A stretch of DNA of 64,000 nucleotides from a virus (taxonomy: Duplodnaviria > Caudoviricetes), in IMG/VR virus record IMGVR_UViG_3300031867_004305, positions 117,043-181,042 of that record; one strand, given 5' to 3'. The position numbers were made by a program, and so were the translations under genes. The notes below the pieces were generated by a model. That model was not told the DNA's origin. It searched no databases and worked only from the letters and a program-made list of their open reading frames with translations. This document shows positions 17,430-40,309 of the stretch, in pieces; position 1 is the stretch's first letter, and each line of letters starts with the position of its first letter.

Positions 17430-17527
17430 TAGGCACACACAGCAATTTTTATTTATTATAAGAATTGTATTATTTGTTTGTTTTCGTGCCGCGGCTGATA
17501 GTACAAAAATAATTTTGATGTGCCTAG
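17430..17527 (+). ncRNA. CAGCAA-family stem RNA 1
   Basis: TAGGCACA-CACAGCAA ... TGTGCCTAG terminal stem. Confidence 0.65.
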
Positions 17528-20893: not shown

Positions 20894-20961
20894 CTAGACA
20901 CGTACAGCAATCTTTTCTATACTACCTGCGCCATTTTTGCTGGAAATTAGAATGTGTCTAG
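20894..20961 (+). ncRNA. CAGCAA-family stem RNA 2
   Basis: CTAGACACG-TACAGCAA ... TGTGTCTAG, filling the spacer between two tRNAs. Confidence 0.65.
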
Positions 20962-20965
20962 ATTT

Positions 20966-21039
20966 AGGAGTTTAGTGTAATGGTAGCATACCGGTCTCCA
21001 ACACCGTTGGTGAGGGTTCAAATCCTTCAACTCCTGCCA
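20966..21039 (+). tRNA. tRNA-Trp(CCA)
   Basis: CTCCAAC loop; GCCA end. Confidence 0.9.
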
Positions 21040-21699: not shown

Positions 21700-22338
21700 A
21701 TGCCATACATTTATAAAATTGTAAATGATATTAATAATAAAATATATGTTGGGAAAACATTGAAAACAGTTCAAGAAAGATGGAAGCAGCATTTATATGA
21801 TTATGATAAAAAAAGAAATGAAAAACGACCTTTATATGATGCTATGTTAAAATATGGTCCTAATCATTTTCATATAGAAGAATTAGAAAATGTTTTAGAC
21901 GCGACTTTATTAAATGAACGCGAAAAATATTGGATTGAATTTTTACATTCTTTTCAAGATGGGTATAACGCCACATGCGGCGGAGATGGGACCCCATATG
22001 CTGATTATGCATTAATCTATGAATTATATACAATTCATAACTTAACATTTGAAAAAATTCAAAATATAACTAATTATGATATGCGTACTATACGTGCTGC
22101 TATTATGAGTTGTGGTATTTCAAAAGAAAATATTGAAAAAATCCGCTTACAAAGATTAAGAAAGCCTGTAATGCAGTTAGATATAAAAACAGAAGAAATT
22201 TTAAAAATTTTTCCTAGTTGTACTGCTGCACAGCGTGAAGTTAGTAATAATCCAAATGATTATTCTGGTACTCATATTTCTGCTGTATGCCGTGGCAAAA
22301 GACGTACTGCCTATGGTTATAAATGGAAATACTTGTAA
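21700..22338 (+). CDS. GIY-YIG homing endonuclease with NUMOD1-like C-terminus
   Basis: YIYKI.N.IN.KIYVGKT...R...H...E...GYN.T.GG; terminal ISAVCRGKRRTAYGYKW. Confidence 0.88.
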   Translation: MPYIYKIVNDINNKIYVGKTLKTVQERWKQHLYDYDKKRNEKRPLYDAMLKYGPNHFHIEELENVLDATLLNEREKYWIEFLHSFQDGYNATCGGDGTPYADYALIYELYTIHNLTFEKIQNITNYDMRTIRAAIMSCGISKENIEKIRLQRLRKPVMQLDIKTEEILKIFPSCTAAQREVSNNPNDYSGTHISAVCRGKRRTAYGYKWKYL

Positions 22339-24058: not shown

Positions 24059-24239
24059 TTGATTTGGGATGATAATTTATATGACGCGATGAAAGATGTA
24101 TATGACTATGCCTATCGCGTTTTTTTTGGAAAAGCACCCATAGATGTTACTTATCGTGTGAATTATGGCAGTAGAGGAGCAGAACAAAAAGTTTTACAGT
24201 ATATTTGGAACACTTATATTGAACCGAAGGGAGAAAATA

Positions 24240-24821
24240 ATGAGTAATATTTATTTCAGTAGTGACTTGCATTTTTGTCATAACCGCGGTTTTCTTTATG
24301 AGCCACGCGGTTTTTCATCTATCGAAGAACATGACTCTGCCATTATTGAAAACTGGAATAAAATAGTTAAAAATAATGATGTTGTTTTTCTACTTGGTGA
24401 TTTAATGCTTAATGATAATGTAAATGGTATTAAAAAATTAAATAAATTAAATGGCACGATATATTACATACGAGGAAACCATTGCTCAAATGCGCGTTGC
24501 GTCCTATACGAAGAACAAACTAATATGATTCCGCTATGTAATAATTTCTTTAGTAGTTGGGCTTCATTAGAAAAAATCAAAGGATATAATTTGTATTTAT
24601 CTCATTATCCAACTATAATTGGCTCATTAAAAGATATGACGCCATTAAACAAGAGATTAATAAATCTTCATGGTCATCTTCATAGTAAAAATAAATTCTA
24701 TCAAGATATTCCTTTTATGTATAATGTAGCACTTGACGCACATAATAACGCGCCCGTATCATTTGATGAAATTATTTCAGATATTGAAGCAAAAGCAAAT
24801 GAATGTATTGCTATGCTATAA
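24240..24821 (+). CDS. Calcineurin-like metallophosphoesterase
   Basis: SDLHFCH, LGD, GNH, SHYP, HGHLH motifs. Confidence 0.88.
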   Translation: MSNIYFSSDLHFCHNRGFLYEPRGFSSIEEHDSAIIENWNKIVKNNDVVFLLGDLMLNDNVNGIKKLNKLNGTIYYIRGNHCSNARCVLYEEQTNMIPLCNNFFSSWASLEKIKGYNLYLSHYPTIIGSLKDMTPLNKRLINLHGHLHSKNKFYQDIPFMYNVALDAHNNAPVSFDEIISDIEAKANECIAML

Positions 24822-25129
24822 GGAGATAATATGATTTACGAGGGGCCTTATGTACTTATTTTAATTATCCTATTAGGGATAGGCGCTAGTTTATTATTGA
24901 CTGGTTTTATGAATAGTTAATCAAGGAGGAAATATGGGATTACCATTTATTTTTGGGAAAAAGAAAACAGAAGAAACCCCTGATATTACTAATGAAGAAT
25001 TAGAGAAAATATTAAAATCTGCTCCTGTAATATCTTCAAATACAATAAAACCAGAAGTTATAAGTTTAACTACTTCACGTGAATTAAAGTATTTAAAGAA
25101 ACGAATATGGAAATTCTATCATAAATAAT

Positions 25130-25158
25130 TTGACTTTTACTAAAAAATCTGCTATAAT
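25130..25158 (+). promoter_or_regulatory. sigmaA-type promoter of the DUF2828 gene
   Basis: TTGACT-17 bp-TATAAT with TG extension. Confidence 0.85.
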
Positions 25159-25222
25159 AATATTGTAAGAAAGAAACGAGCCCTAGTCCAGGGCTGACCA
25201 AATGAAAAGGAGAAAATAAATT

Positions 25223-26758
25223 ATGAATCGTCTTTACAATGCTATGGCTTCTCAGAACACCTACAAGACTACCGAGAATGGTGCTATCGCACGCACCACG
25301 ACCAGCTCTAAGCTATATGACCTCTTCTCTTTCGGCGCGGCTTACCGTCAGCGTACCGAGAGTGATTGCGTGCTACTATTTAAGGAGGCATATAAGGAAA
25401 GTCCTATGTATGCCCTAAAGTGCCTGTTCTATATCCGCGATATTCGCGGCGGACAGGGTGAGCGTCGTTTCTTCCGCACTTGCCTGCATTGGCTTGCGGA
25501 TTATGACCGCAATGCCGTACTACGCAATCTTGACCAGATTGCTGAGTATGGCCGCTGGGATGACCTATATGCCCTAGTGGGGACTTCTTGTGAACATGAT
25601 GCTCTTTATGCTCTTGGCAAGCAGCTTGCCCTTGATTACAAGACCAAGGGTGCTATTTCCCTTGCCGGTAAGTGGGCAGCTTCAGAGAACGCTTCTTCTG
25701 CCAAGACTAAGCGTTATGGTCGTCTAACTGCTCATACTATGGGTCTAACTTCTCGTCAATATCGCAAGGTGCTTTCTACCCTTCGTGAGCGTATTCGTGT
25801 TCTGGAGCGACTTATGTCCGCAAATCGTTGGAATGAGATTGAATTTGACAAGATTCCTTCTCGTGCTGGCCTAATCTACAAGAACGCTTTTGCACGCCGT
25901 GATATCATCAAGGCGAAGTATGAGTCTTTTGCAAAGGATAAGACTACCAAGGTTAACGCGGCAGCCCTCTATCCTTACGATGTCGTAGCTAAGGCAATTA
26001 AGCTGATGGGCTCTGACAGCTGGTATGGCCGTGGTAATCATGTTGCTCTTGACAATACCGATCGTCTAATGATTAACAAGTATTGGGAGAATCTTGTTGA
26101 TTATCTGACTGGTGCTCCACTAAATGCGGTGGTAGTGGCTGATACAAGCGGAAGTATGTGTTCAGGTGCTAATAGTGTGGCTCCAATTGATGTTGCTGTT
26201 TCTTTGGCTCTATACGCGGCCGAACGTATGCGTGGTCCTTTTGCCAATCATTATATTTCTTTTAGCCGTAAGGCTCGTTTAATCGAGACTACTGGCGTGG
26301 ATTTTTGTGATAAGGTAGATAGGATTGTAAGGACGAATCTATGTGAAAATACGAATTTAGCTTCCGTATTTGACCTTATCCTAAGTACTGCTTGTCACTA
26401 TAATCTATCTCAAAAGGATATGCCAGAAAGCATTATTATTGTAACAGATATGGAAGTAGATTCCGCACAGGGTTATTCTTCTTGGGGACGAGCACCTGAA
26501 TATGGACACGGCGGTAAGGGAATTCAAACCTTTATGGATAAGATGCGTAGTCGTTGGACTGACGCAGGATATAAAATGCCAAAAATTGTATTTTGGAACG
26601 TAAACGCACGAAATAATACAATTTTGGATGATGGCCCTGATGTTACTAATGTCAGCGGTTGCTCACCGGTTCTATTTGAATCTATCCTATCTGGAAAAAG
26701 TTCTTATGATCTTATGATGGATAAGCTAAATAGTAATCGTTATAAGCCAATTCATTAA
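25223..26758 (+). CDS. DUF2828-family TROVE/Ro60-like protein with C-terminal vWA domain
   Basis: TENGA, RDIRGGQGERRFF, EYGRWDDL, KW motifs; MIDAS DTSGSM; TDME; FWNVN. Confidence 0.82.
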   Translation: MNRLYNAMASQNTYKTTENGAIARTTTSSKLYDLFSFGAAYRQRTESDCVLLFKEAYKESPMYALKCLFYIRDIRGGQGERRFFRTCLHWLADYDRNAVLRNLDQIAEYGRWDDLYALVGTSCEHDALYALGKQLALDYKTKGAISLAGKWAASENASSAKTKRYGRLTAHTMGLTSRQYRKVLSTLRERIRVLERLMSANRWNEIEFDKIPSRAGLIYKNAFARRDIIKAKYESFAKDKTTKVNAAALYPYDVVAKAIKLMGSDSWYGRGNHVALDNTDRLMINKYWENLVDYLTGAPLNAVVVADTSGSMCSGANSVAPIDVAVSLALYAAERMRGPFANHYISFSRKARLIETTGVDFCDKVDRIVRTNLCENTNLASVFDLILSTACHYNLSQKDMPESIIIVTDMEVDSAQGYSSWGRAPEYGHGGKGIQTFMDKMRSRWTDAGYKMPKIVFWNVNARNNTILDDGPDVTNVSGCSPVLFESILSGKSSYDLMMDKLNSNRYKPIH

Positions 26759-26781
26759 AAGACGGATTATTCCGTCTTTTT
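26757..26781 (+). terminator. Intrinsic terminator
   Basis: AAAAGACGGA-TTAT-TCCGTCTTTTT. Confidence 0.75.
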
Positions 26782-26798
26782 ATTTAGGATGTGATTCT

Positions 26799-27542
26799 AT
26801 GGGAAGGCCCGCTAAAGATTTAACAAATCAAAGATTTCAACGATTATTAGTAATTAAGCGTGATGGTTCTACAGCTGATGGTCATGCTAAATGGTTATGT
26901 TTATGTAACTGCGGTAATTATATAAGTGTATCATCCAATAGTTTAAAACGCGGTGATACTAAATCTTGTGGATGCTTAAATAAAGATGTAGCAAGAGAAA
27001 AAGGTAGACAATCTTATAAAGATCTCACTAATAAACGTTTTAATAAACTAATTGCTAAAGAATATTTAGGAAGTAATAATAAAGGAAGTGGTTTATGGAG
27101 ATGCGAATGTGATTGTGGAAATAATAATTTTATTACAACGTCGCACCATTTAATTAGCAGCAATACGCAAAGCTGTGGTTGCTTAAAATCAAAAGGAGAA
27201 GCAAATATAAAACAACTACTTATAAATAATAATATTAATTTTATTTCACAATATTACTTTAAAGATTTATATTATGAAAGTAATATACCTGTTCGATTTG
27301 ATTTTTATTTACCCGATTATAACCGATTAATTGAATTTGATGGTATTCAACATTATACTTCTGGCGGTGGATGGAACACCGCTGAATTATTTAAACGCAA
27401 TAAAAAACACGACGAAATTAGAAACCAATATGCCCTTTCCCACAACATTCCTCTCGTTCGCATACCATATTGGGAACGTGATAATATTACTCTTGAAATG
27501 TTATTTAGTGATGAATATTTAGTGAAAGAAGAAGATGAATGA
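26799..27542 (+). CDS. Putative homing endonuclease (Zn-binding repeats + Vsr/DUF559-like nuclease)
   Basis: Two DLT..RF..L...W.C.C.CG...SCGC repeats; RFDFYLP...IEFDGIQH. Confidence 0.75.
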   Translation: MGRPAKDLTNQRFQRLLVIKRDGSTADGHAKWLCLCNCGNYISVSSNSLKRGDTKSCGCLNKDVAREKGRQSYKDLTNKRFNKLIAKEYLGSNNKGSGLWRCECDCGNNNFITTSHHLISSNTQSCGCLKSKGEANIKQLLINNNINFISQYYFKDLYYESNIPVRFDFYLPDYNRLIEFDGIQHYTSGGGWNTAELFKRNKKHDEIRNQYALSHNIPLVRIPYWERDNITLEMLFSDEYLVKEEDE

Positions 27543-27612
27543 AAATTCATCTTCTTTTTTATTGACTAAATATAAAAATTATAGTATAATAATTATAGAA
27601 AGGATGAGGAAT

Positions 27613-27969
27613 ATGAATTATTATATCTATCTTGATGATGTACGCGAAGATGATACTTGGTTTCGGCAACATTTAAATACAGAGCATTGGATTCCTTGCG
27701 TTGTTCGTTCCTATGATGAAGTAATTCATGTTCTCAATCATATGCGAGATTATATGAATGAGAATGAAGTGCTTATTCTTGACCTCGACCACGACCTTGG
27801 CGAAACTGAAGAAGGCTATAATGAACTCGCGCGCACAGGATATGACGTTTGTAAGTGGATTGTTGAAAACGATTTTCAAAATCTTTACTTTCATATACAT
27901 AGTATGAACCCCGTTGGGTCTGCAAATATGCGGCAACTTCTTACTCATTATGGATATAAGGAGATTTAG
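27613..27969 (+). CDS. Cyclic-phosphate-processing receiver domain protein
   Basis: IYLDDVR...LDHDLG...GYDVCKWI...IHSMNPVG signature. Confidence 0.75.
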   Translation: MNYYIYLDDVREDDTWFRQHLNTEHWIPCVVRSYDEVIHVLNHMRDYMNENEVLILDLDHDLGETEEGYNELARTGYDVCKWIVENDFQNLYFHIHSMNPVGSANMRQLLTHYGYKEI

Positions 27970-27970
27970 T

Positions 27971-28189
27971 ATGAAAAATCCTTGGGAAGATTGTACTCAT
28001 TATGATGGCTGGAATGGGTTTGAAGGAGCGGTAGTAAAACATGACCGTGGTATTTGGTCTGATGAAGTGTTTGATAATTGGTTAAGTGAATATTGTGAAC
28101 GTTGCCCATTCTTTGCGAGTGGAGAGGCTTGTGTATATGGAGACAAAGATGTTATGAAAATGATGAAAAACAAATATGAGGAAATTTAA
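27971..28189 (+). CDS. Hypothetical Cys-rich protein
   Basis: ORF in operon context. Confidence 0.5.
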   Translation: MKNPWEDCTHYDGWNGFEGAVVKHDRGIWSDEVFDNWLSEYCERCPFFASGEACVYGDKDVMKMMKNKYEEI

Positions 28190-28397
28190 TATGTGGAAAA
28201 AAGTAAAGGATTGCGAAACTCTTTCAATACAAGCCCTTGCAGCTATGGCACTCGTAGAAAAGAAAAATAATCGTTTAATTACTTGGTCTACTAGTGACGG
28301 ATTAATTCATTTATGCTCTTTTGAAACTTTAGCACAAATCAAAGAAACTGAAATAGAATCCAATACAAAATTTACTCTATGGGAGAAAAAATAAAGT

Positions 28398-29048
28398 ATG
28401 AGAAAGTATGAAAAGATTGATACTCTCTATCAAAGAGACACAACCGGAACTAAAAAGTTGCTTCCGGGAGTATTTCGTGATCCTACCGTAGAATATCTCA
28501 GCGACAATAATTGGATTTGGACTGAAAAGGTTGATGGCACTAATATCCGTGTATGTTGGGATGGCCATACTGTAACCTTTGGCGGCCGCACCGATAATGC
28601 TGCTATTCCCGCAGAACTTGTTACTCGTTTGAATGAGTTGTTCGGTGGAGAAACAAATGCTCAAATTTTTGAACAGGTTTTCGGCGATAAGGAAGTCATT
28701 CTTTTCGGTGAAGGCTATGGTCGCAAGATTCAAAAGGGCGGTGGAAAGTATATTCCCGACGGCGTAGATTTTATTCTTTTTGATGTGCTTATTGGCGACA
28801 ATTATCAAGAACGAGAATGGGTAGAAGAAACTGCCACAATGTTTGGAATTAAAGCTGTTCCTATTGTTGGCACTGGTAGTCTATATGCCGCAGGAGAGTA
28901 TGTAAAAACCCATCCTAATTCTGTAATTGCAGAAGAGCCGCGTGAAATGGAAGGAGTAGTATGTCGTCCTGCAATTGAACTACGCAATCGTCGCGGCGAG
29001 CGTATAATCGTAAAAATCAAATGGGAAGATATGAAGGAGCTAGTATAA
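28398..29048 (+). CDS. ATP-dependent RNA ligase (Rnl2-like nucleotidyltransferase core)
   Basis: Motif I EKVDGTN, III FGEGYG, IIIa FILFDV, IV EGVVCR, V IVKIK. Confidence 0.85.
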   Translation: MRKYEKIDTLYQRDTTGTKKLLPGVFRDPTVEYLSDNNWIWTEKVDGTNIRVCWDGHTVTFGGRTDNAAIPAELVTRLNELFGGETNAQIFEQVFGDKEVILFGEGYGRKIQKGGGKYIPDGVDFILFDVLIGDNYQEREWVEETATMFGIKAVPIVGTGSLYAAGEYVKTHPNSVIAEEPREMEGVVCRPAIELRNRRGERIIVKIKWEDMKELV

Positions 29049-32837: not shown

Positions 32838-33794
32838 ATGGAAACTTACACAAATATTTGGTTAGATATTTCAGAAGAACAATGGAGAAAAATTATTTCT
32901 ACTAGTCTAACTCGTGCAGAGGTCGCACGCAAAGTTAATCGTTGTCCCAATTCAAGTTTTAATGAGCGTTTAAAAAAATATTGTGATGAACATAATATCT
33001 CTATTGAACATTTTACAATTAATGAAAATGGCAATAAAGAGAAATATCAACTTGAAGAAATTCTAGTAGAAAACTCTCCTGCTTCGAGAAAAACATTAAG
33101 AGACTATTTAGCAAAATATAACATTCTAGAATATAAATGTGCTATTTGCGGGAATGTTGGAGAATGGAATGGAGTTTCTTTAACTTTACAAATAGACCAT
33201 ATTAATGGAATAAATAATGATAATAGAAAAGAAAATCTTCGTTGGTTATGTCCAAATTGTCATTCTCAAACTGACACGTTTACTGGGAAAAATAAAACTA
33301 AAAAAGAAGTTGTTAATTTCACAGTAGAAGAAGCGATTAAAGCATTAAGACAAACTGAAAATGTAAATCAAGCAACTAAATTAATCGGTTGTGCGCAAGG
33401 TGGAGCAAATTGGATTAGAGTAAATGATATTAAGAAAGAATATGGAATTGTTCAATCTGGAGATTTAAAAAAAGAAGAAAAATATAAGTTTGAAGAAAAT
33501 CATATTAATGTAAAACCAATGAACTTTATTAAATTATGTAAAAAGTGCGGTCGTCCATTATCGACAAAAGATGCTGAGTATTGTCAAACTTGTATTCACG
33601 AATTTCAACGAAAATGTGAATGGCCTTCCCGCGAAGAACTTAAAAAATTAATCCGTTCCACACCTTTTTTACAAATAGGTAAAAAATATAATGTAAGTGA
33701 TAACGCTGTAAGAAAATGGTGTTTAAATTACGGTTTACCATCTAAAAAAAAGGAAATCAAAGCAATTTCAGATGAAGAGTGGGCTACCATTTGA
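32838..33794 (+). CDS. HNH homing endonuclease
   Basis: CAIC...LQIDHING...DNRKENLRWLCPNCH. Confidence 0.88.
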   Translation: METYTNIWLDISEEQWRKIISTSLTRAEVARKVNRCPNSSFNERLKKYCDEHNISIEHFTINENGNKEKYQLEEILVENSPASRKTLRDYLAKYNILEYKCAICGNVGEWNGVSLTLQIDHINGINNDNRKENLRWLCPNCHSQTDTFTGKNKTKKEVVNFTVEEAIKALRQTENVNQATKLIGCAQGGANWIRVNDIKKEYGIVQSGDLKKEEKYKFEENHINVKPMNFIKLCKKCGRPLSTKDAEYCQTCIHEFQRKCEWPSREELKKLIRSTPFLQIGKKYNVSDNAVRKWCLNYGLPSKKKEIKAISDEEWATI

Positions 33795-34113: not shown

Positions 34114-34179
34114 AGGCGGAAACAGCAACATTCTTTTAAGTAGCAATCTGTTAAATTGTAAGACTTATTAACCGCCTAG
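34114..34179 (+). ncRNA. CAGCAA-family stem RNA 3, carrying an Asn(GUU)-like anticodon hairpin
   Basis: AGGCGG-AAACAGCAA ... GCAAT-CTGTTAA-ATTGT ... CCGCCTAG. Confidence 0.65.
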
Positions 34180-34603: not shown

Positions 34604-35197
34604 GTAGATACCCTATTTAATAAAATGGTTGAACCAAGTGAAGAAGAGCTAACCACTCTGCTTGGACTATCCGAAAAACAGCCCCAAACTTGATGGGATA
34701 CTTTCAAGCCAAGGCCGCGAAATCAGTAATGATTAGCGATATGGAGAAACTCCTAATGTTAAGGGTAGGTGCTTGGTTATCCGCTAACAAAAACTTGGCT
34801 CCTCGCGGCGTCGTAATAGAAGGTGGGCGTTAAAAGCGTGACCTGAATCCAAGTTAGGCGTAGGATGGCTGCCACCGCAAACCTTGGAAATGCCAACAAG
34901 ACGCTTGGTGTCGTTGAAACCTAGAAATAGGATATAAGCGAGGTTCACAGAAAAAGTAGCCCAAAACGACAATGATTCTAATAGATATTTGTAAATATTA
35001 CTTGGAATTATTGTGCTGAACGGTTCGGGTGAAATTTGAGAGTAAGCAATCTCTCCGTTGCTCACCGAAAGGTAGGGTGAAGAAGTCCGGAATTGCTACC
35101 CGTGGCTCAGCCTTCATCTTCAACGTGGTTGAATATGTTAGAAGGATAATACAAGTACGACGAAGGTCGCAACGGTTTTATTAAATAGGGTATTTGC
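34604..35197 (+). ncRNA. Large ncRNA, ROOL-like (~590 nt)
   Basis: Long closing helix ATACCCTATTTAATAAAA/TTTTATTAAATAGGGTAT; size and tRNA-cluster context fit ROOL; family assignment is recollection, not a search. Confidence 0.6.
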
Positions 35198-36428: not shown

Positions 36429-36968
36429 ATGAACGAAGTAAGACTAAAGATTCTACCTCCTTGGACTATTGTAATTCGTAAGTTCGAGGCCCTATTTGAT
36501 GGTGACCCACAAATTGCTTGTAATTGTAACTTTAATGGTGCTAATCCTTCTATCGTTCTTGCTTGTAATAACGGAGATAAGGTCGCCGCACTCCTGAAGA
36601 TTCTACCTTCCGAAGTTGATTTTGGTAATATTAAGCTAAAGGTTGTGGTCGATGGCATTCCTTCTAATAAGGCATTTACTAGTAAGGTTGAGCTATTTGA
36701 CACCGCTTTTAAGGGTAATCCCGCATATGCATATTCCATATGTCCTGCTGAAGAAGGTTATATGTGGATTGGAACTACTTATGTAGTGTTCAAGAATTTC
36801 GTCGTACAGTTTGCTGCTGATAATCTAAACGATTGTCACGGCATTATTAGCACTCTATATCAAGATATTGCAGAAGAGCTTCTACGTGGAGAAGCTACTG
36901 AAGGTGTTTTTTACAATACTGATGTAGAACGTGCGAATCTCGGTAAGCCCCTAGGTGAGTGGCCATAA
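36429..36968 (+). CDS. Hypothetical phage protein
   Basis: ORF with RBS; VVQF.ADNL.D..G motif. Confidence 0.6.
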   Translation: MNEVRLKILPPWTIVIRKFEALFDGDPQIACNCNFNGANPSIVLACNNGDKVAALLKILPSEVDFGNIKLKVVVDGIPSNKAFTSKVELFDTAFKGNPAYAYSICPAEEGYMWIGTTYVVFKNFVVQFAADNLNDCHGIISTLYQDIAEELLRGEATEGVFYNTDVERANLGKPLGEWP

Positions 36969-36981
36969 GCCACTCTAATCT

Positions 36982-37057
36982 GGGCCTATAGTTCAGCGGC
37001 TAGAATGTCCGGTTGTCTCCCGGAAGATCGCAGGTTCGAATCCTGTTAGGCTCGCCA
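36982..37057 (+). tRNA. tRNA-Asp(GUC)
   Basis: TCCGG-TTGTCTC-CCGGA; GCCA. Confidence 0.9.
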
Positions 37058-37175
37058 TAGACTCATCCAGCAATTTCTTTTGCGCTGTAGGAGCCGGTAA
37101 TATTGGTTCAAATCCAATTCTCCTCACCATATGAGGAGATAGTGTAATAGGTAGCACGCCGTAAAATGAGTCTAG
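37058..37175 (+). ncRNA. CAGCAA-family RNA 4: permuted tRNA mimic (YrlA-like)
   Basis: TAGACTCAT-CCAGCAA; T arm, then closed acceptor TCTCCTCA-CCATA-TGAGGAGA, then D arm; ATGAGTCTAG. Confidence 0.75.
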
Positions 37176-37183
37176 TATATTAT

Positions 37184-37260
37184 AGGGGTGTGGGCTAAAG
37201 GTGAGCCGCCTCATTTGGGGTGAGGACATCAAGTGAGTTCGATTCTCACCACTCCTACCA
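37184..37260 (+). tRNA. tRNA-Pro(UGG)
   Basis: CCTCA-TTTGGGG-TGAGG; ACCA. Confidence 0.88.
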
Positions 37261-37358
37261 ATTAAGAAAAAGAGAAGCGTAAGAGTAATTAACTTATGAG
37301 ATAACAATACCTCAATATTGAGTCTTTTTCTTATATAAATATTATTGAGGCGATATTT

Positions 37359-37907
37359 ATGCCTAAAAGAATGACACAAGAAGATTTTAATGCTAGAATA
37401 AAAGATTACACTAATGATTCTATAATAGTTATTGGAGAATATAAAAATAAAAAAACTCCTGTTTTAATACAATGTAAAAAATGTAATTACAAATGGTATT
37501 ATTCTCCAGCATCATTAATGCCTAGTTCTACAAAAAATTATCATTTTAAAGGTTGCCCTAATTGTAAAAAAGTAACTCTTTTTTGCTTAGAATGTGGAAA
37601 AGAATTTACTCGGTTAAAAACTGAAATAAATGACAATAATTTTTGTTGTAAAACTTGTGCAAATCGTTATAAAAATAAACAAAAAATCAATAAAATTGAT
37701 AGTTTAGCATACAGACGCAATGCTTTTGAATATTATCCGCACAAATGCGATATTTGTGGTTGGAATAAAGATGAAAGAGTATTAGAAGTTCATCATTTAG
37801 ACGAAGATAGAACTAATAATCATATTGATAATTTACGAATTTTGTGTCCAAATTGTCATAAATTTTTAACATTGCATCTTTATTCTTATGAAGAAATGAA
37901 ACAGTAA
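37359..37907 (+). CDS. HNH endonuclease
   Basis: CDICGW...LEVHH.DEDRTNN.IDNL.ILCPNCH. Confidence 0.85.
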   Translation: MPKRMTQEDFNARIKDYTNDSIIVIGEYKNKKTPVLIQCKKCNYKWYYSPASLMPSSTKNYHFKGCPNCKKVTLFCLECGKEFTRLKTEINDNNFCCKTCANRYKNKQKINKIDSLAYRRNAFEYYPHKCDICGWNKDERVLEVHHLDEDRTNNHIDNLRILCPNCHKFLTLHLYSYEEMKQ

Positions 37908-38010
37908 TCAACTGGGTTTGGAGATTATCCCAACCGTAAAATCTCCTCCTTTCTGGTTTGACTTTTCTTAAAAATTTTGATATAATAAATATATCAAAGG
38001 AAAGGAAATA

Positions 38011-38244
38011 ATGAGTATGAAAAAGGAAGTTTTAGGTGTCAATCAAACTAAGGCAGAATTTGTCAAGTCTATTCATGATTGGCTGATGCGTACACTTAAA
38101 TCTTTAGATCGTGAAGAATATCAAAAATGTTTTAAAATTGAAGGATCTAGTATCATGTGTGAACTTCCAGATAATTTTTTTGATAATTATGAAATTCCTT
38201 CTGGCACACGCATTGAAATGAAATTTATTACAAAGAAATCTTAA
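38011..38244 (+). CDS. Hypothetical protein
   Basis: Promoter + RBS + ORF. Confidence 0.55.
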   Translation: MSMKKEVLGVNQTKAEFVKSIHDWLMRTLKSLDREEYQKCFKIEGSSIMCELPDNFFDNYEIPSGTRIEMKFITKKS

Positions 38245-38248
38245 AATT

Positions 38249-38351
38249 TTAAGCCGTCACAGCAATCTTTTTAAGTGGTTAAATTATTTTGATTGAGAAG
38301 CAAAATGAGAGACGGTTCAAACCCATCACAATTAAACAATTAACGGCTTAA
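38249..38351 (+). ncRNA. CAGCAA-family RNA 5 with degenerate D/anticodon/T arms in normal order
   Basis: TTAAGCCGT-CACAGCAA ... AAGTGGTTAA ... GACGG-TTCAAAC-CCATC ... ACGGCTTAA. Confidence 0.65.
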
Positions 38352-38367
38352 TATTAATACAGTGAAT

Positions 38368-38447
38368 AAGGCACACACAGCAATTACTTTTATAATTACA
38401 AGATATAGATATTGGGCAGTATATTAAAGTAAATTATTAGTGCCTTG
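38368..38447 (+). ncRNA. CAGCAA-family stem RNA 6
   Basis: AAGGCAC-ACACAGCAA ... GTGCCTTG. Confidence 0.65.
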
Positions 38448-38454
38448 AATTTAT

Positions 38455-38529
38455 GCCGGCGTAGCCCAATGGTAAGGCAGCTCACTTGTAATGAGCAGAT
38501 TGGGGTTTCGACTACCTCCGCCGGCTCCA
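38455..38529 (+). tRNA. tRNA-Thr(UGU)
   Basis: GCTCA-CTTGTAA-TGAGC; TCCA. Confidence 0.9.
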
Positions 38530-38549
38530 TTATTTAAAAGGAGTTTATT

Positions 38550-38966
38550 ATGGGATTTTTCACTAAAAAGAAACCAGTTACAGAACCGCTTAACCCCATT
38601 GAGAAAAAGTGCGAACATAAGTTTCAAGATTTTCCTTGGTTTTTAACTTGGGATTTACAATATAATAAATATATTATAAAAGTAATTGAACCTTATGTTT
38701 GTATCTTTTGCGGCGAAAGGAAAAATAAAATCCTCGCTTCTTATACTGGTACTAATTATAAGGAAGGCGAAAAACTTTTAAATGAACTCCATAATCGCTT
38801 TGATAATCATATTAAATATCAAGAAGAAGTAGAAGATATGATAAATGATATGATTTTAGTAGATCCAGAATACTTAAAATGGTATCATTTACTACGCGAA
38901 CAACAAGATCCATCTACTTCTCGGCCGCAAACCGAATTTAATAAGAAACCAGAATTAAAATTATGA
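38550..38966 (+). CDS. Hypothetical protein
   Basis: ORF with RBS; CEH...CIFC. Confidence 0.55.
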   Translation: MGFFTKKKPVTEPLNPIEKKCEHKFQDFPWFLTWDLQYNKYIIKVIEPYVCIFCGERKNKILASYTGTNYKEGEKLLNELHNRFDNHIKYQEEVEDMINDMILVDPEYLKWYHLLREQQDPSTSRPQTEFNKKPELKL

Positions 38967-38970
38967 TAAA

Positions 38971-39087
38971 TAGGCACATGCAGCAACTTACATAGATAAT
39001 CTATGAGTCATCGGTTCGATTCCGATTATGCAATCCAAAGCTTTGCGTATCGCCCAGATGGTAGGGCAATAGAAACAAGGTGCCTAG
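38971..39087 (+). ncRNA. CAGCAA-family RNA 7: permuted tRNA mimic (YrlA-like)
   Basis: TAGGCAC-ATGCAGCAA; ATCGG-TTCGATT-CCGAT; TATGCAA-TCCAAAGCT-TTGCGTA; GCCC-AGATGGTA-GGGC; GTGCCTAG. Confidence 0.75.
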
Positions 39088-39100
39088 ATGAAAGGTTTTT

Positions 39101-39538
39101 ATGAAGATTTATATTTCTTATTTTGCTCAAATTCGCAATTTTCCGCCTAACCTTGTTGGGCTTTCTACTGCCGTTTGGAACCCAAAATGGCTTCAGAAGG
39201 GAAGAAGTCAAAATGGAATTATTTGGTTAGATATTCCGCCTCTAAAACCCGGTAAGAGGTGTAATGGGCTATGTAATGGCAAATGTTCTCCTAAGCATCC
39301 AAATGATTGTAGTTTCTTACGTGAATATAAAAATCAACTAGATAAAATAGATTTCAATATGATAATGGAGCATCTTCAAGTATTAAGTGAGGCTATAAAA
39401 GTTGAAGAACAATTTGATGATGTAGATTTTGCGTTATTAGTCTATGAAAAATATGATAATATTTGTTCTGAACGATGGCCTCTTATTCAATGGTTTAAAG
39501 AGCATAGTGTTATATTAGAAGAATGGGAACTAACATAA
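39101..39538 (+). CDS. DUF488-like protein
   Basis: IYISYFA...PKW...L.P...LLVYEK...CSER; 3' end overlaps tRNA-Gln. Confidence 0.55.
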   Translation: MKIYISYFAQIRNFPPNLVGLSTAVWNPKWLQKGRSQNGIIWLDIPPLKPGKRCNGLCNGKCSPKHPNDCSFLREYKNQLDKIDFNMIMEHLQVLSEAIKVEEQFDDVDFALLVYEKYDNICSERWPLIQWFKEHSVILEEWELT

Positions 39539-39597
39539 TAGTAGTGTATTCGGCTCTGACCCGAAGTGTGATAGTTCAATTCTATCGTTCCCAGCCA
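39524..39597 (+). tRNA. tRNA-Gln(CUG)
   Basis: TTCGG-CTCTGAC-CCGAA; GCCA. Confidence 0.85.
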
Positions 39598-39600
39598 TAT

Positions 39601-39675
39601 GGGTGTGTAACCAAGAGGTAAGGTAACGGACTTTTAATCCGTGATTCGTGGGTTCGATCCCCGCCACACCCACCA
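39601..39675 (+). tRNA. tRNA-Lys(UUU)
   Basis: ACGGA-CTTTTAA-TCCGT; ACCA. Confidence 0.92.
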
Positions 39676-39685
39676 ATTATAATAC

Positions 39686-39775
39686 GCGGTATTAGCGTAG
39701 AGGCCGAACGCGGGAGTTTGCTAAACTCTGTCGATCTTCAGTGATCCGAAGGTTCGAATCCTTCATACCGCGCCA
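39686..39775 (+). tRNA. tRNA-Ser(GCU)
   Basis: GGAGT-TTGCTAA-ACTCT; long variable arm; GCCA. Confidence 0.88.
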
Positions 39776-39777
39776 AA

Positions 39778-39934
39778 TGTGGACAGTAGGCTTGGAAGCA
39801 GCCATCTGATAATGAGTCTTTAATTTCTCCATCTGTGCGAAATGTATTATAGGCTACATTTGTTATAATGTCCTATGAGTATGATGTGCGGATGGGCAAT
39901 AGAAATATGAAGTTTGGCGTAATAGCACACCACA
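39778..39934 (+). ncRNA. 23S rRNA L11-binding-domain (H43/H44) mimic
   Basis: GGCTTGGAAGCAGCCATC and GCGTAATAGCACA closed by TGTGG/CCACA. Confidence 0.7.
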
Positions 39935-40063
39935 TAGCTCATCTGCCATGTGTAGAAGGAGCGGAGAAATCGTTCTGCGATTTCGTTAATAGACTTGCCC
40001 ACGCCTCTGATTCAAGCGTACCTTGGGGAGCACGCGGCCACAGCGGTTAAAGTGGCACTATGC

Positions 40064-40138
40064 GCGGGTGTAGTTCAACGGCTCGAATACCTGGCTTCCA
40101 CCCAGGAGATGAGGTTTCGACTACCTCTACTCGCACCA
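40064..40138 (+). tRNA. tRNA-Gly(UCC)
   Basis: CCTGG-CTTCCAC-CCAGG; ACCA. Confidence 0.88.
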
Positions 40139-40142
40139 ATAT

Positions 40143-40218
40143 AGGCGTGTAGCCAAGTGGTTAAGGCACATGGCTTTGACCCATGCATTCGCTGGTTCAA
40201 ATCCAGCCACGCCTGCCA
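40143..40218 (+). tRNA. tRNA-Gln(UUG)
   Basis: CATGG-CTTTGAC-CCATG; GCCA. Confidence 0.92.
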
Positions 40219-40222
40219 ATTT

Positions 40223-40286
40223 TAGACGCCATTGTGCCACAACAACAGCAATTATTTTGTAGCTCCATTTTTTATAAGGCGTCTAG
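40223..40286 (+). ncRNA. CAGCAA-family stem RNA 8
   Basis: TAGACGCC-(small hairpin)-AACAGCAA ... GGCGTCTAG. Confidence 0.6.
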
Positions 40287-40309
40287 CAAAGTTCAAGGAG
40301 GTATTCGGG

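What the first reader, a model, noticed from the sequence alone, without database searches (positions are those of the whole stretch)
38971..39087. Second permuted tRNA mimic of independent sequence
Seen: T arm ATCGG-TTCGATT-CCGAT; acceptor TATGCAA/TTGCGTA closed by a loop beginning TCCA; D arm GCCC-AGATGGTA-GGGC; short CTAT/ATAG stem in place of the anticodon arm; all inside TAGGCAC/GTGCCTA with CAGCAA. Same plan as 37058 but with different arm sequences, suggesting repeated recruitment of tRNAs into this RNA family.
Basis: seen in the sequence. Interest (0 to 1): 0.75.

Follow-up and report, generated by a model that had tools for sequence, protein, structure and literature searches.

The report
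tRNA-shaped partner RNA of Ro60-like protein
This 116-base phage gene encodes a small RNA shaped like a tRNA with its ends moved (the known YrlA type of Y RNA), and it carries a conserved "handle" that marks the likely partner RNAs of a Ro60-like phage protein, a branch of the Ro60/Y-RNA system that I did not find described.

Summary
The element is a circularly permuted tRNA mimic: hairpin, variable loop, T arm, 7-bp acceptor stem closed by a loop starting N-CCA, then D arm. All of this lies inside a 7-bp terminal helix followed by AUG-CAGCAA.

- **Conservation:** Orthologues keep every pair. Twenty-seven members from diverse phages covary in all helices, including the G15-C48/A15-U48 tertiary pair.
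- **Known architecture:** This is the layout of bacterial YrlA Y RNAs. Rfam YrlA matches the exact interval, but at 30.9 bits against a cut-off of 69.
- **Protein partner:** The phage has no Pfam TROVE protein. ORF 25223-26758 (DUF2828+DUF7788) has a full-length Ro60 fold (Z 23).
- **Handle:** The signature AAGRCNC-AUA-CAGCAA lies beside DUF2828 genes in IMG/VR phages, about 20-fold enriched upstream on the same strand. It also lies there in cultured E. coli, Listeria, Enterococcus, Bacillus, Campylobacter and Mycobacterium phages.
- **Reading:** It is most likely a YrlA-like partner RNA of a divergent Ro60. Binding and expression are untested.
- **"Repeated recruitment":** This is only partly supported.

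This scan has noted the same RNA-protein pairing on many other genomes. The handle also matches dictyostelid Class I RNAs.

The parts
38971..38977 (+). 5' strand of the terminal 7-bp helix (the 'handle'), TAGGCAC
   Evidence: Pairs with 39080-39086. The pair at column 12/118 changes A-U to G-U in orthologues. Five of 7 pairs covary across 27 members.
38978..38986 (+). Unpaired AUG + CAGCAA, the invariant motif of the handle
   Evidence: The motif sits in a fixed register in 113 family members, with consensus AAGRCNC-AUA-CAGCAA. The same motif occurs in the RNAs next to DUF2828 genes of cultured phages.
38991..39005 (+). Local hairpin CATAGA-TAA-TCTATG, at the position of an anticodon or variable arm
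   Evidence: It is chosen by the MFE fold. A hairpin at this place occurs in nearly all of the 27 members, with different sequences.
39001..39004 (+). CTAT, which can instead pair with ATAG 39069-39072 (an anticodon-stem-like helix closing the junction)
   Evidence: The 4-bp helix is kept in 21 of 27 members in a fixed register, D stem + 1 nt. It is mutually exclusive with the local hairpin.
39005..39009 (+). Variable-loop equivalent GAGTC, ending in C48
   Evidence: C48 and G15 (39057) form the Levitt pair. The family shows G-C in 17 members and A-U in 10, with no exceptions.
39010..39026 (+). T arm ATCGG-TTCGATT-CCGAT
   Evidence: G53, T54, T55, C56, A58 and C61 are invariant in 27 of 27 members. 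Four of 5 stem pairs covary.
39027..39049 (+). Acceptor-like 7-bp stem TATGCAA/TTGCGTA, closed by the loop T-CCA-AAGCT
   Evidence: Compensatory changes A-U to C-G to U-A occur in orthologues. All 7 pairs covary in the family. N-CCA directly follows the 3'-type strand in 13 of 27 members.
39050..39067 (+). U8-N9 connector (TC) and D arm GCCC-AGATGGTA-GGGC
   Evidence: U8 and A14 are invariant in 27 of 27 members, and the GG of the D loop is kept. The D stem changes G-C to A-U in two orthologues.
39069..39072 (+). ATAG, partner of CTAT 39001-39004. It repeats the 5' strand of the local hairpin.
39080..39086 (+). 3' strand of the terminal helix, GTGCCTA
25223..26758 (+). Gene for the presumed protein partner: a 511-aa Ro60-like protein (helical ring + vWA domain with the MIDAS motif DxSxS)
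   Evidence: Pfam assigns DUF2828 + DUF7788. The AF2 model has pLDDT 77. The top 12 Foldseek hits are all Ro60/Rsr/TROVE, with E 4e-8. VIA-align gives Z 23.3 with 398 residues aligned to 1yvr. D307, T308, S309 and S311 are invariant.
37058..37174 (+). Sister handle RNA with a different permuted tRNA-like interior (the '37058' element)
   Evidence: R1 scores it at 41 bits, E 5e-7.
17430..17526 (+). Sister handle RNA with no tRNA-like interior
20894..20961 (+). Sister handle RNA, directly 5' of tRNA-Trp
34114..34177 (+). Sister handle RNA (6-bp helix AGGCGG/CCGCCT), directly 5' of tRNA-Leu
38249..38351 (+). Sister handle RNA with a T-arm-like hairpin only
38368..38446 (+). Sister handle RNA with a short A/U-rich interior
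40223..40285 (+). Sister handle RNA with a longer spacer between helix and CAGCAA

Best explanation
Window 38971-39086 (+) encodes a non-coding RNA of about 116 nt of the Y-RNA kind.

**Shown by computation**
- The two ends pair into a 7-bp helix. On the 5' strand this is followed by three unpaired bases and CAGCAA.
- This handle is shared by eight RNAs of the phage's tRNA island.
- Across phages of at least four bacterial phyla, the same handle marks RNAs encoded next to the gene for a Ro60-shaped protein (Pfam DUF2828+DUF7788). The phage's own copy of that gene is at 25223-26758 on the same strand.
- The interior is a circularly permuted tRNA: hairpin, variable loop, T arm, 7-bp acceptor stem closed by a loop that starts N-CCA, U8, then D arm. 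It keeps every nucleotide needed for the tRNA L-shape.

**Inferred**
- The Ro60-like ring binds the handle, as Ro60 binds the terminal stem and 5'-strand motif of Y RNAs.
- The tRNA-shaped module is displayed to tRNA-handling enzymes. Candidates are RNase P, the CCA-adding and modification enzymes, and the phage's own RNA ligase and cyclic-phosphate module at 27535-29048.
- It thereby tethers or gates the ring during tRNA quality control or repair, probably in conflict with host defences.
- The RNA is probably cut out of a long tRNA-island transcript.
- The copies with a 7-bp acceptor stem and N-CCA are plausible RNase P substrates, as was shown for M. smegmatis YrlA.
For: **Structure**
- All features are at the stated coordinates.
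- Orthologues are 100% paired, with two compensatory pairs.
- In 27 members, 24 of 27 pairs covary, with a score of 0.82 against 0.21 for shuffled controls. RNAalifold agrees.
- Universal tRNA nucleotides are invariant and the Levitt pair covaries in 27 of 27 members.

**Kinship with YrlA**
- Rfam RF02553 matches 38971-39089 over the full model, at 30.9 bits and E 3.8e-4.
- The same architecture is published (PMC4201824; 10.1101/312249).

**Protein**
- Pfam assigns DUF2828+DUF7788.
- The fold is Ro60 over the full length: Foldseek E 4e-8 and Z 23.3.

**Coupling of handle and protein**
- PF11443 is present in 17 of 25 records that hold closed handle RNAs. This includes all 7 records that are at least 72% complete. 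It is present in 2 of 19 controls; one of these (L074) holds a handle RNA that my first filter missed, and the other (L113) was not resolved. Fisher p = 1.7e-4.
- In 80 loci found through the protein alone, there are 117 handle RNAs upstream on the gene's strand. That is 3.3 per 10 kb, against 0.14-0.33 per 10 kb elsewhere.
- Handle RNAs abut the DUF2828 gene in E. coli phage fjerdesal, Mycobacterium phage Jobypre and Listeria phage A511. They also do so in Campylobacter F365, Enterococcus UTI-EfS3 and Bacillus PK-3.

**Context**
- A cREC domain and an RNA ligase lie next to the Ro60-like gene.
- In phage Bas63, a Ro60-like gp130 upstream of the tRNAs counters the Ppl defence (PMC11482910).
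Against: - There are no binding, expression or end-mapping data.
- In this phage the element lies 12.2 kb from the protein gene, beyond the 4 kb used to define YrlA loci.
- Rfam YrlA scores stay far below the gathering cut-off, here and in relatives.
- The published Ro-binding motif GNCGAAN0-1G is absent.
- The phages compared are partly related, so the co-occurrence statistics overstate independence.
- Aeromonas phage Aeh1 has the protein but no CAGCAA element within 5 kb.
- A permuted tRNA mimic without the handle exists in a phage that has neither DUF2828 nor TROVE (L010 5470-5600). The tRNA-like module can therefore exist without the protein.
Confidence: 0.8

Rival explanations
1. A free-standing tRNA decoy. 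The tRNA-shaped RNA acts on its own, for example as a sponge or bait for host tRNA-cleaving defence nucleases or tRNA-binding enzymes. In this reading the handle only serves processing or stability, and the Ro60-like protein is not its partner.
For: A handle-less permuted mimic exists in a phage without the protein. The element is 12 kb from the protein gene. It sits among 19 tRNA genes.
Against: It has no anticodon loop to bait anticodon nucleases. The handle, not the tRNA module, is what tracks the DUF2828 gene across phyla, and about two thirds of handle RNAs have no tRNA-like part.
Confidence: 0.09
2. A cis-acting processing signal. The terminal helices with CAGCAA are recognition sites for a nuclease that cuts the polycistronic tRNA-island transcript, and the interior is incidental.
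For: There is no strong promoter or terminator next to the element. A strong promoter lies only at 37958-37986. Several copies abut tRNAs. Some family members enclose whole tRNAs.
Against: The interior is under strong structural selection, with all helices and a tertiary pair covarying. In Mycobacterium phage Jobypre, three copies stand alone after the protein gene, followed by a terminator and with no tRNA beside them.
Confidence: 0.07
3. A decaying remnant of a tandem tRNA duplication: the 3' half of one copy plus the 5' half of the next, with no function.
For: N-CCA follows the acceptor 3' strand. The strand after the D arm repeats the 5' strand of the upstream hairpin, as a dimer origin predicts. 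A dimeric-tRNA origin has been proposed for YrlA (10.1101/312249).
Against: The element is conserved with compensatory changes in orthologues and in 27 distant members. The handle is invariant.
Confidence: 0.02
4. A true permuted tRNA gene, or a two-piece tmRNA, that is processed into a decoding molecule.
For: It has a 7-bp acceptor stem, a discriminator base plus CCA, and a complete elbow. The phage tRNA set includes no Phe, Tyr, His, Ile or Val tRNA.
Against: There is no 7-nt anticodon loop; the hairpin loop is 3-5 nt. ARAGORN and the Rfam tRNA and tmRNA models do not call it. There is no tag reading frame.
Confidence: 0.02

Closest known systems
YrlA Y RNAs of bacteria and TROVE-encoding phages (Rfam RF02553; Chen et al. 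2014, PMC4201824; structure in bioRxiv 10.1101/312249)
   Same: Both have a terminal 5'-3' helix with a conserved 5'-strand motif. Both have an interior in the order T arm, closed acceptor-like stem-loop, D arm, with tRNA tertiary nucleotides and a covarying Levitt pair. Both are encoded on the strand of a Ro60-type gene, with shorter YrlB-like siblings. M. smegmatis YrlA also has a 7-bp acceptor stem, is cut by RNase P and gains CCA.
   Different: The motif is CAGCAA rather than GNCGAAN0-1G. The second helix of the Rfam model is absent. Scores are 30-39 bits against a cut-off of 69. The partner protein is Pfam DUF2828+DUF7788, not TROVE. N-CCA is genome-encoded in about half the members. There are up to eight copies per genome, inside a tRNA island.
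Class I RNAs of dictyostelid social amoebae (Kjellin et al. 2021, PMC7919456)
   Same: Both have a short covarying helix joining the 5' and 3' ends. This is followed directly on the 5' strand by an unpaired conserved motif ending in CAGCAA (CCUUACAGCAA; for example GTTGAC-CTTA-CAGCAA...GTCAAC-TG in the paper's supplement). The interior is variable, and there are many copies per genome.
   Different: Class I RNAs are eukaryotic, 42-65 nt, and driven by their own DUSE promoter. No tRNA-like interior has been reported. The known binding protein is the RRM protein Rnp1A. That paper reports the class as unique to Dictyostelia. Whether amoebae use a DUF2828 protein with them was not tested here.
Thermus phage phiLo Ro60 with Yrl1/Yrl2 (PMC12135203), and other phage Ro60 genes with Y-like RNAs
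   Same: A phage-encoded Ro60-fold protein (PDB 9kop/9l5y is among the structural hits) has small stem-bulge-stem RNAs encoded beside it.
   Different: phiLo uses a canonical TROVE protein and a CGAA motif. No tRNA-like permuted domain is described.
Bas63 (Felixounavirus) gp130, a Ro60-like counter-defence protein (PhageMaP preprint, PMC11482910)
   Same: The same kind of protein sits directly upstream of a tRNA array. In the related phage fjerdesal, four handle RNAs, one of them a permuted tRNA mimic, lie among those tRNAs.
   Different: The preprint only speculates that some annotated tRNAs might be Y RNAs. It does not identify the RNAs.
Circularly permuted tRNA genes of the red alga Cyanidioschyzon merolae, and two-piece tmRNAs (from my own knowledge)
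   Same: In gene order, the 3' half precedes the 5' half.
   Different: Those genes yield complete decoding or tagging molecules after processing. This element has no anticodon loop or tag frame, and it keeps its acceptor stem closed in the gene.

Membership tests
YrlA (Rfam RF02553) | Order: terminal helix, T arm, closed acceptor-like stem-loop, D arm, terminal helix | tested here: met
   The cmscan alignment covers model positions 1-114.
YrlA (Rfam RF02553) | Conserved tRNA tertiary nucleotides and a covarying Levitt pair | tested here: met
   U8, A14, G53, T54, T55, C56, A58 and C61 are present in 27 of 27 members. R15-Y48 is G-C in 17 and A-U in 10.
YrlA (Rfam RF02553) | Score at or above the curated gathering cut-off (69 bits) | tested here: not met
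   The score is 30.9 bits here. Other members score 30.6-39.3 bits.
YrlA (Rfam RF02553) | 5' motif GNCGAAN0-1G (the proposed Ro60 contact) | tested here: not met
   The sequence reads GGCAC-AUG-CAGCAA. The family consensus is AAGRCNC-AUA-CAGCAA.
YrlA (Rfam RF02553) | Encoded within about 4 kb of, and on the same strand as, a TROVE-domain Ro60 orthologue | tested here: inconclusive
   The element is on the same strand but 12.2 kb from the gene. The protein is not Pfam TROVE, but it has the Ro60 fold. In 43 of 60 other loci, a handle RNA lies within 6 kb upstream.
YrlA (Rfam RF02553) | Binds Ro60/Rsr and is modified by TruB and Dus enzymes | not testable with these tools
   This needs immunoprecipitation and modification mapping.
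CAGCAA-handle RNAs beside DUF2828 Ro60-like genes (not found in Rfam 15 or in the papers searched) | A 6-10-bp terminal helix with AG at positions -9/-8, 1-4 unpaired bases, then CAGCAA | tested here: met
CAGCAA-handle RNAs beside DUF2828 Ro60-like genes (not found in Rfam 15 or in the papers searched) | The genome encodes a DUF2828+DUF7788 protein on the same strand | tested here: met
   ORF 25223-26758.
Dictyostelid Class I RNA | A short terminal helix followed on the 5' strand by the 11-nt motif CCUUACAGCAA | tested here: inconclusive
   The last six bases of the motif and its register match. The first five bases differ: CACAU in place of CCUUA.
Dictyostelid Class I RNA | 42-65 nt, DUSE promoter about 60 nt upstream, dictyostelid genome | tested here: not met
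   The element is 116 nt and in a phage genome. DUSE was not searched for.
tRNA (RF00005) | Normal order with an anticodon arm carrying a 7-nt loop | tested here: not met
   ARAGORN and the Rfam tRNA model make no call at 38971-39086. The hairpin loop is 3-5 nt.
Permuted or two-piece tmRNA | tRNA-like domain plus tag reading frame and pseudoknots | tested here: not met
   ARAGORN finds no tmRNA. The only hit is a 17-nt T-arm match to beta_tmRNA at 10.4 bits.

The most novel reading that the evidence does not exclude
The CAGCAA handle defines one ancient ribonucleoprotein family: a DUF2828-type Ro60 paralogue plus handle RNAs. In this reading the family spans phages of at least four bacterial phyla and the Class I RNAs of dictyostelid amoebae, and perhaps plants, whose genomes also hold DUF2828 genes.

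Within this family, the tRNA-shaped members would be switchable. The strand 5' of the variable loop pairs either with an upstream copy or with a downstream copy of the same sequence. After RNase P cleavage, these members would expose a genuine N-CCA end, giving a two-piece tRNA mimic used in tRNA repair or counter-defence.
Probability: 0.3. Interest if true: 0.85.

Novelty: new variant of a known kind. Interest (0 to 1): 0.6.

Why it matters
- **A large unnamed protein family gets a candidate ligand.** DUF2828 proteins occur in 703 GenBank phage records, including Felix O1-like, A511/P100-like and mycobacteriophages. Many are annotated only as "hypothetical", "vWFA" or "RNA-binding" protein. 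A specific, recognisable RNA ligand would make them a tractable second branch of the Ro60/Y-RNA system.
- **Standard annotation misses these RNAs.** They fall below every Rfam cut-off and lie between tRNA genes.
- **Direct experiments are possible.** One member of the protein family is already linked to escape from a bacterial defence system (PMC11482910). The RNAs identified here allow direct tests in laboratory phages.
- **A second open question becomes approachable.** The shared handle with dictyostelid Class I RNAs offers a concrete protein candidate for a class of RNAs whose molecular function is still unresolved.

Tried and rejected
- **blastn against GenBank phages:** Window 36900-40300 found only tRNA matches and no close relative.
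- **Pfam TROVE:** No hit in the phage, nor in the L009/L010 records.
- **PDB sequence search:** A profile of the DUF2828 alignment gave 0 hits by sequence. Only fold comparison showed the Ro60 relationship.
- **14-mer scan of IMG/VR:** GGCACACACAGCAA returned mostly chance matches (95 of 120 loci by my first filter; three of these, L026, L065 and L074, later proved to hold handle RNAs). I filtered the matches for the closing helix.
- **Element finder:** My generic finder has a real false-positive rate in GC-rich or coding DNA. I therefore relied on strand and position asymmetry and on control motifs.
- **Donor tRNA:** The 38971 copy has no convincing donor among the phage's 19 tRNAs.
- **Limits of model R1:** It is weak in Felixounavirus (12-18 bits), although the handle finder recovers the elements there.
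- **Aeromonas phage Aeh1:** No CAGCAA element within 5 kb of its DUF2828 gene.
- **Promoters and terminators:** No strong promoter or terminator flanks the element.
- **Reviews not available:** PMC10870794 and PMC6047535 are not held.
- **Literature searches:** "DUF2828" and "Ro-like + phage + Y RNA" found nothing relevant.

Full report
**Setting.** The window is bases 117043-181042 of a 181-kb IMG/VR phage record rated complete. It holds 19 tRNA genes and a ROOL RNA. The finding fills the 134-nt gap between two small same-strand ORFs, 38550-38966 and 39101-39538.

**Observation.**
- Terminal helix: TAGGCAC 38971-38977 pairs with GTGCCTA 39080-39086.
- Motif: AUG-CAGCAA at 38978-38986.
- T arm: 39010-39026.
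- Acceptor-like stem: 7 bp, 39027-39033 with 39043-39049, closed by the loop T-CCA-AAGCT.
- Connector and D arm: TC, then the D arm at 39052-39067.
- Short helix: CTAT 39001-39004 with ATAG 39069-39072.

CTAT can also pair with an upstream CATAGA to form a local hairpin, which is the minimum-free-energy choice. The single-sequence fold is only modestly better than shuffles (z -2.1), so the case rests on comparison with other sequences.

**Orthologues.** Two flanking ORFs brought in related IMG/VR contigs. The element is 81-90% identical there. In seven distinct orthologues all 189 pair cells are standard pairs. There are compensatory changes in the acceptor stem (A-U, C-G, U-A) and in the D stem (G-C to A-U).

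**Wider family of permuted mimics.** A covariance model built from these orthologues (R1) finds 27 full-length matches at E < 1e-5 in diverse phages.
- On their alignment, 97% of cells pair and 24 of 27 pairs have double-sided changes.
- The covariation score is 0.82, against 0.21 for shuffled and 0.07-0.13 for slid controls.
- That alignment is fitted to the model. However, RNAalifold independently recovers the terminal, T, acceptor and D helices on it.
- U8, A14, G53, T54, T55, C56, A58 and C61 are invariant, and R57 is always a purine.
- The tertiary Levitt pair covaries without exception, G15-C48 in 17 members and A15-U48 in 10.

The tRNA-mimic reading is therefore strongly supported.

**What is known.** This is the published architecture of YrlA, the tRNA-like Y RNA bound by bacterial Ro60 (Rsr). 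The literature describes it as a circularly permuted tRNA with a closed acceptor stem and proposes an origin from dimeric tRNA transcripts (PMC4201824; bioRxiv 10.1101/312249). Rfam's YrlA model matches exactly 38971-89 over its whole length, but at 30.9 bits against a cut-off of 69. Other members score 30.6-39.3 bits. The published Ro-contact motif GNCGAAN0-1G is replaced by CAGCAA. The element therefore works like a YrlA but fails two membership criteria.

**The protein.**
- Pfam TROVE is absent from the phage.
- ORF 25223-26758 is Pfam DUF2828+DUF7788.
- Its AlphaFold model has pLDDT 77 and pTM 0.77.
- By Foldseek its 12 best PDB matches are all Ro60/Rsr/TROVE structures, with E 4e-8.
- It aligns to Ro60 over 398 residues at Z 23.3, far above the vWA-only matches at Z about 10.
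- A MIDAS motif, DxSxS, is invariant.
- Next to it lie a cREC domain protein and an RNA ligase.

**The handle and its link to the protein.** Eight RNAs in the window share the terminal helix plus CAGCAA. Their interiors are unrelated.
- *From RNA to protein.* PF11443 is present in 17 of 25 IMG/VR records with closed handle elements, including all seven that are at least 72% complete. It is present in 2 of 19 control records; one of these (L074) holds a handle RNA that my first filter missed, and the other (L113) was not resolved. Fisher p = 1.7e-4.
- *From protein to RNA.* The protein alone retrieved 80 loci. In them, 117 handle RNAs lie upstream on the gene's strand. That is 3.3 per 10 kb, against 0.14-0.33 per 10 kb in every other compartment. 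Permuted control motifs give 6-45 hits against 140.
- *Signature.* The motif sits in a fixed register: AAGRCNC-AUA-CAGCAA.
- *Caveat.* The phages are partly related, so these p-values overstate independence.

**Independent confirmation in cultured phages.** The protein family occurs in 703 GenBank phage records. Three tested members are DUF2828+DUF7788 rather than TROVE. Handle RNAs abut the gene in six of seven cultured phages examined:

| Phage | Handle RNAs beside the gene | Permuted tRNA mimics among them |
|---|---|---|
| E. coli phage fjerdesal (Felixounavirus) | 4, among the tRNAs just downstream | 1 |
| Mycobacterium phage Jobypre | 3 in tandem after the gene | 1 (R1 47.8 bits) |
| Listeria phage A511 | 3 just upstream | 0 |
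| Campylobacter phage F365 | 2 | 0 |
| Enterococcus phage UTI-EfS3 | 3 | 2 |
| Bacillus phage PK-3 | 5 | 1 |
| Aeromonas phage Aeh1 | none within 5 kb | not applicable |

The same unpaired hexamer, with covarying helices, thus lies next to proteins only 27-38% identical in hosts from four phyla. This is the strongest argument that the handle is the protein's recognition site. The PhageMaP preprint reports that a structurally Ro60-like gp130 of the Felixounavirus Bas63 counters the Ppl defence. It only speculates that some neighbouring "tRNAs" might be Y RNAs (PMC11482910).

**Mechanism.**
- *Shown:* the structure, its conservation, the protein fold and the genomic coupling.
- *Inferred, by analogy with Ro60/Y RNA:* the ring binds the helix and the 5'-strand motif. 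The tRNA-shaped module is presented to tRNA-handling enzymes, or it gates the ring. The gene context suggests a role in tRNA repair or quality control and in counter-defence.
- *Release of the RNA:* with no strong promoter or terminator nearby, the RNA is probably cut from a long transcript.
- *N-CCA:* it follows the acceptor 3' strand in 13 of 27 members. Together with the 7-bp stem, this makes RNase P cleavage plausible, as was shown for M. smegmatis YrlA. This is inference.

**An unexplained regularity.** In nearly every member, the strand just 5' of the variable loop can pair in two ways. It can pair with an upstream segment, forming a local hairpin of 5-9 bp. Or it can pair with the four bases that follow the D arm plus one nucleotide; this pairing is 4 of 4 in 21 of 27 members, in a fixed register. 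The two partner segments are copies of each other and covary together. This could be a relic of a tandem-tRNA origin, or it could be a maintained conformational switch. I cannot tell which.

**"Repeated recruitment".**
- The two window copies are as unlike each other as unrelated tRNAs. The 38971 copy has no donor among the phage tRNAs. The D arm of the 37058 copy nearly equals that of the phage tRNA-Trp.
- The permuted class is architecturally uniform and shares acceptor sequences between distant phages. This favours descent from an old ancestor.
- Across the whole handle family the interiors vary. In a crude motif-based sorting of 146 elements, about two thirds had no tRNA-like part. Of the rest, 21 were permuted, 7 were non-permuted tRNA bodies, 11 had a T arm only, and 11 held ARAGORN-callable tRNAs (examples checked). 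tRNA material therefore entered the family more than once. This is not shown for this particular copy.

**Further resemblance.** An earlier report of this scan noted a likeness to dictyostelid Class I RNAs. I checked the supplement of PMC7919456. Those RNAs read helix-CUUA-CAGCAA ... helix-UG, with the motif CCUUACAGCAA. This is the same handle design. Whether amoebae pair them with a DUF2828 protein was not tested.

**Verdict.** The element is real and conserved. It is a YrlA-like, tRNA-shaped member of an RNA family that I found neither in Rfam 15 nor in the papers searched. It is most likely the partner RNA of a divergent Ro60. This scan has recorded the same pairing in many other genomes.

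Noticed in passing
window 38991-39005 with 39069-39072; alignment A4: There is a three-way covariation. The strand 5' of the variable loop can pair with an upstream segment, or with an identical segment just after the D arm. These are two mutually exclusive helices, kept in 21 of 27 members. This is either a relic of a tandem-tRNA origin or a conformational switch.
   Followed up: partly
L010:5470-5600 (IMG/VR record of 214 kb): A permuted tRNA mimic (T arm, closed 7-bp acceptor stem, D arm, terminal helix TAACGG/CCGTTA) without the CAGCAA motif. Its phage has neither DUF2828 nor TROVE.
   Followed up: partly
L055:1895-2010, L093:10396-10512, L168:3260-3370: Some handle RNAs enclose a complete, normally ordered tRNA that the Rfam tRNA model scores at 52-66 bits. 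The handle then acts as a leader-trailer duplex around a possibly functional tRNA.
   Followed up: partly
window 37058-37174 versus tRNA-Trp 20966-21039: The D arm of the first permuted mimic (TAGTGTAATAGGTAGCA) is almost identical to that of the phage tRNA-Trp, and the acceptor shares AGGAG. This hints at a recent donor or at gene conversion.
   Followed up: partly
window 34610-35188: A full-length ROOL RNA (307.6 bits) lies in the same tRNA island. A sub-threshold ROOL match (87.5 bits) lies about 1 kb upstream of the DUF2828 gene of Listeria phage A511 (L220:4507-5058).
   Followed up: no
window 24165-29048: An RNA-repair-like gene set surrounds the Ro60-like gene: a cREC receiver domain (27535-27969), an RNA ligase PF09414 (28398-29048), and unassigned ORFs at 24165-24821 and 26799-27542. 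A511 has RtcB and an RNA ligase downstream of its copy.
   Followed up: partly
window 21700-22338, 32838-33794, 37359-37907: One GIY-YIG and two HNH homing-endonuclease-like genes are interspersed among the tRNA and handle-RNA genes.
   Followed up: no
L168:3845-3924 and L206:1879-1955: Elements of about 80 nt match the Rfam tmRNA model end to end (69.5 bits, above the cut-off of 47, and 35.3 bits). They are far too short for a tmRNA and may be another kind of tRNA-like mini-RNA.
   Followed up: no
supplement of PMC7919456 (outgroup candidates): The authors' rejected outgroup candidates include an Arabidopsis and a Capsaspora sequence with helix-(A/C)TTA-CAGCAA ... helix. Plants also carry DUF2828 genes (the Aeh1 annotation cites an Arabidopsis homologue).
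   Followed up: no
L221 (Aeromonas phage Aeh1): This T4-like phage has the DUF2828 gene but no CAGCAA-helix element within 5 kb on either side. Its RNAs may lie elsewhere or use a variant motif.
   Followed up: no
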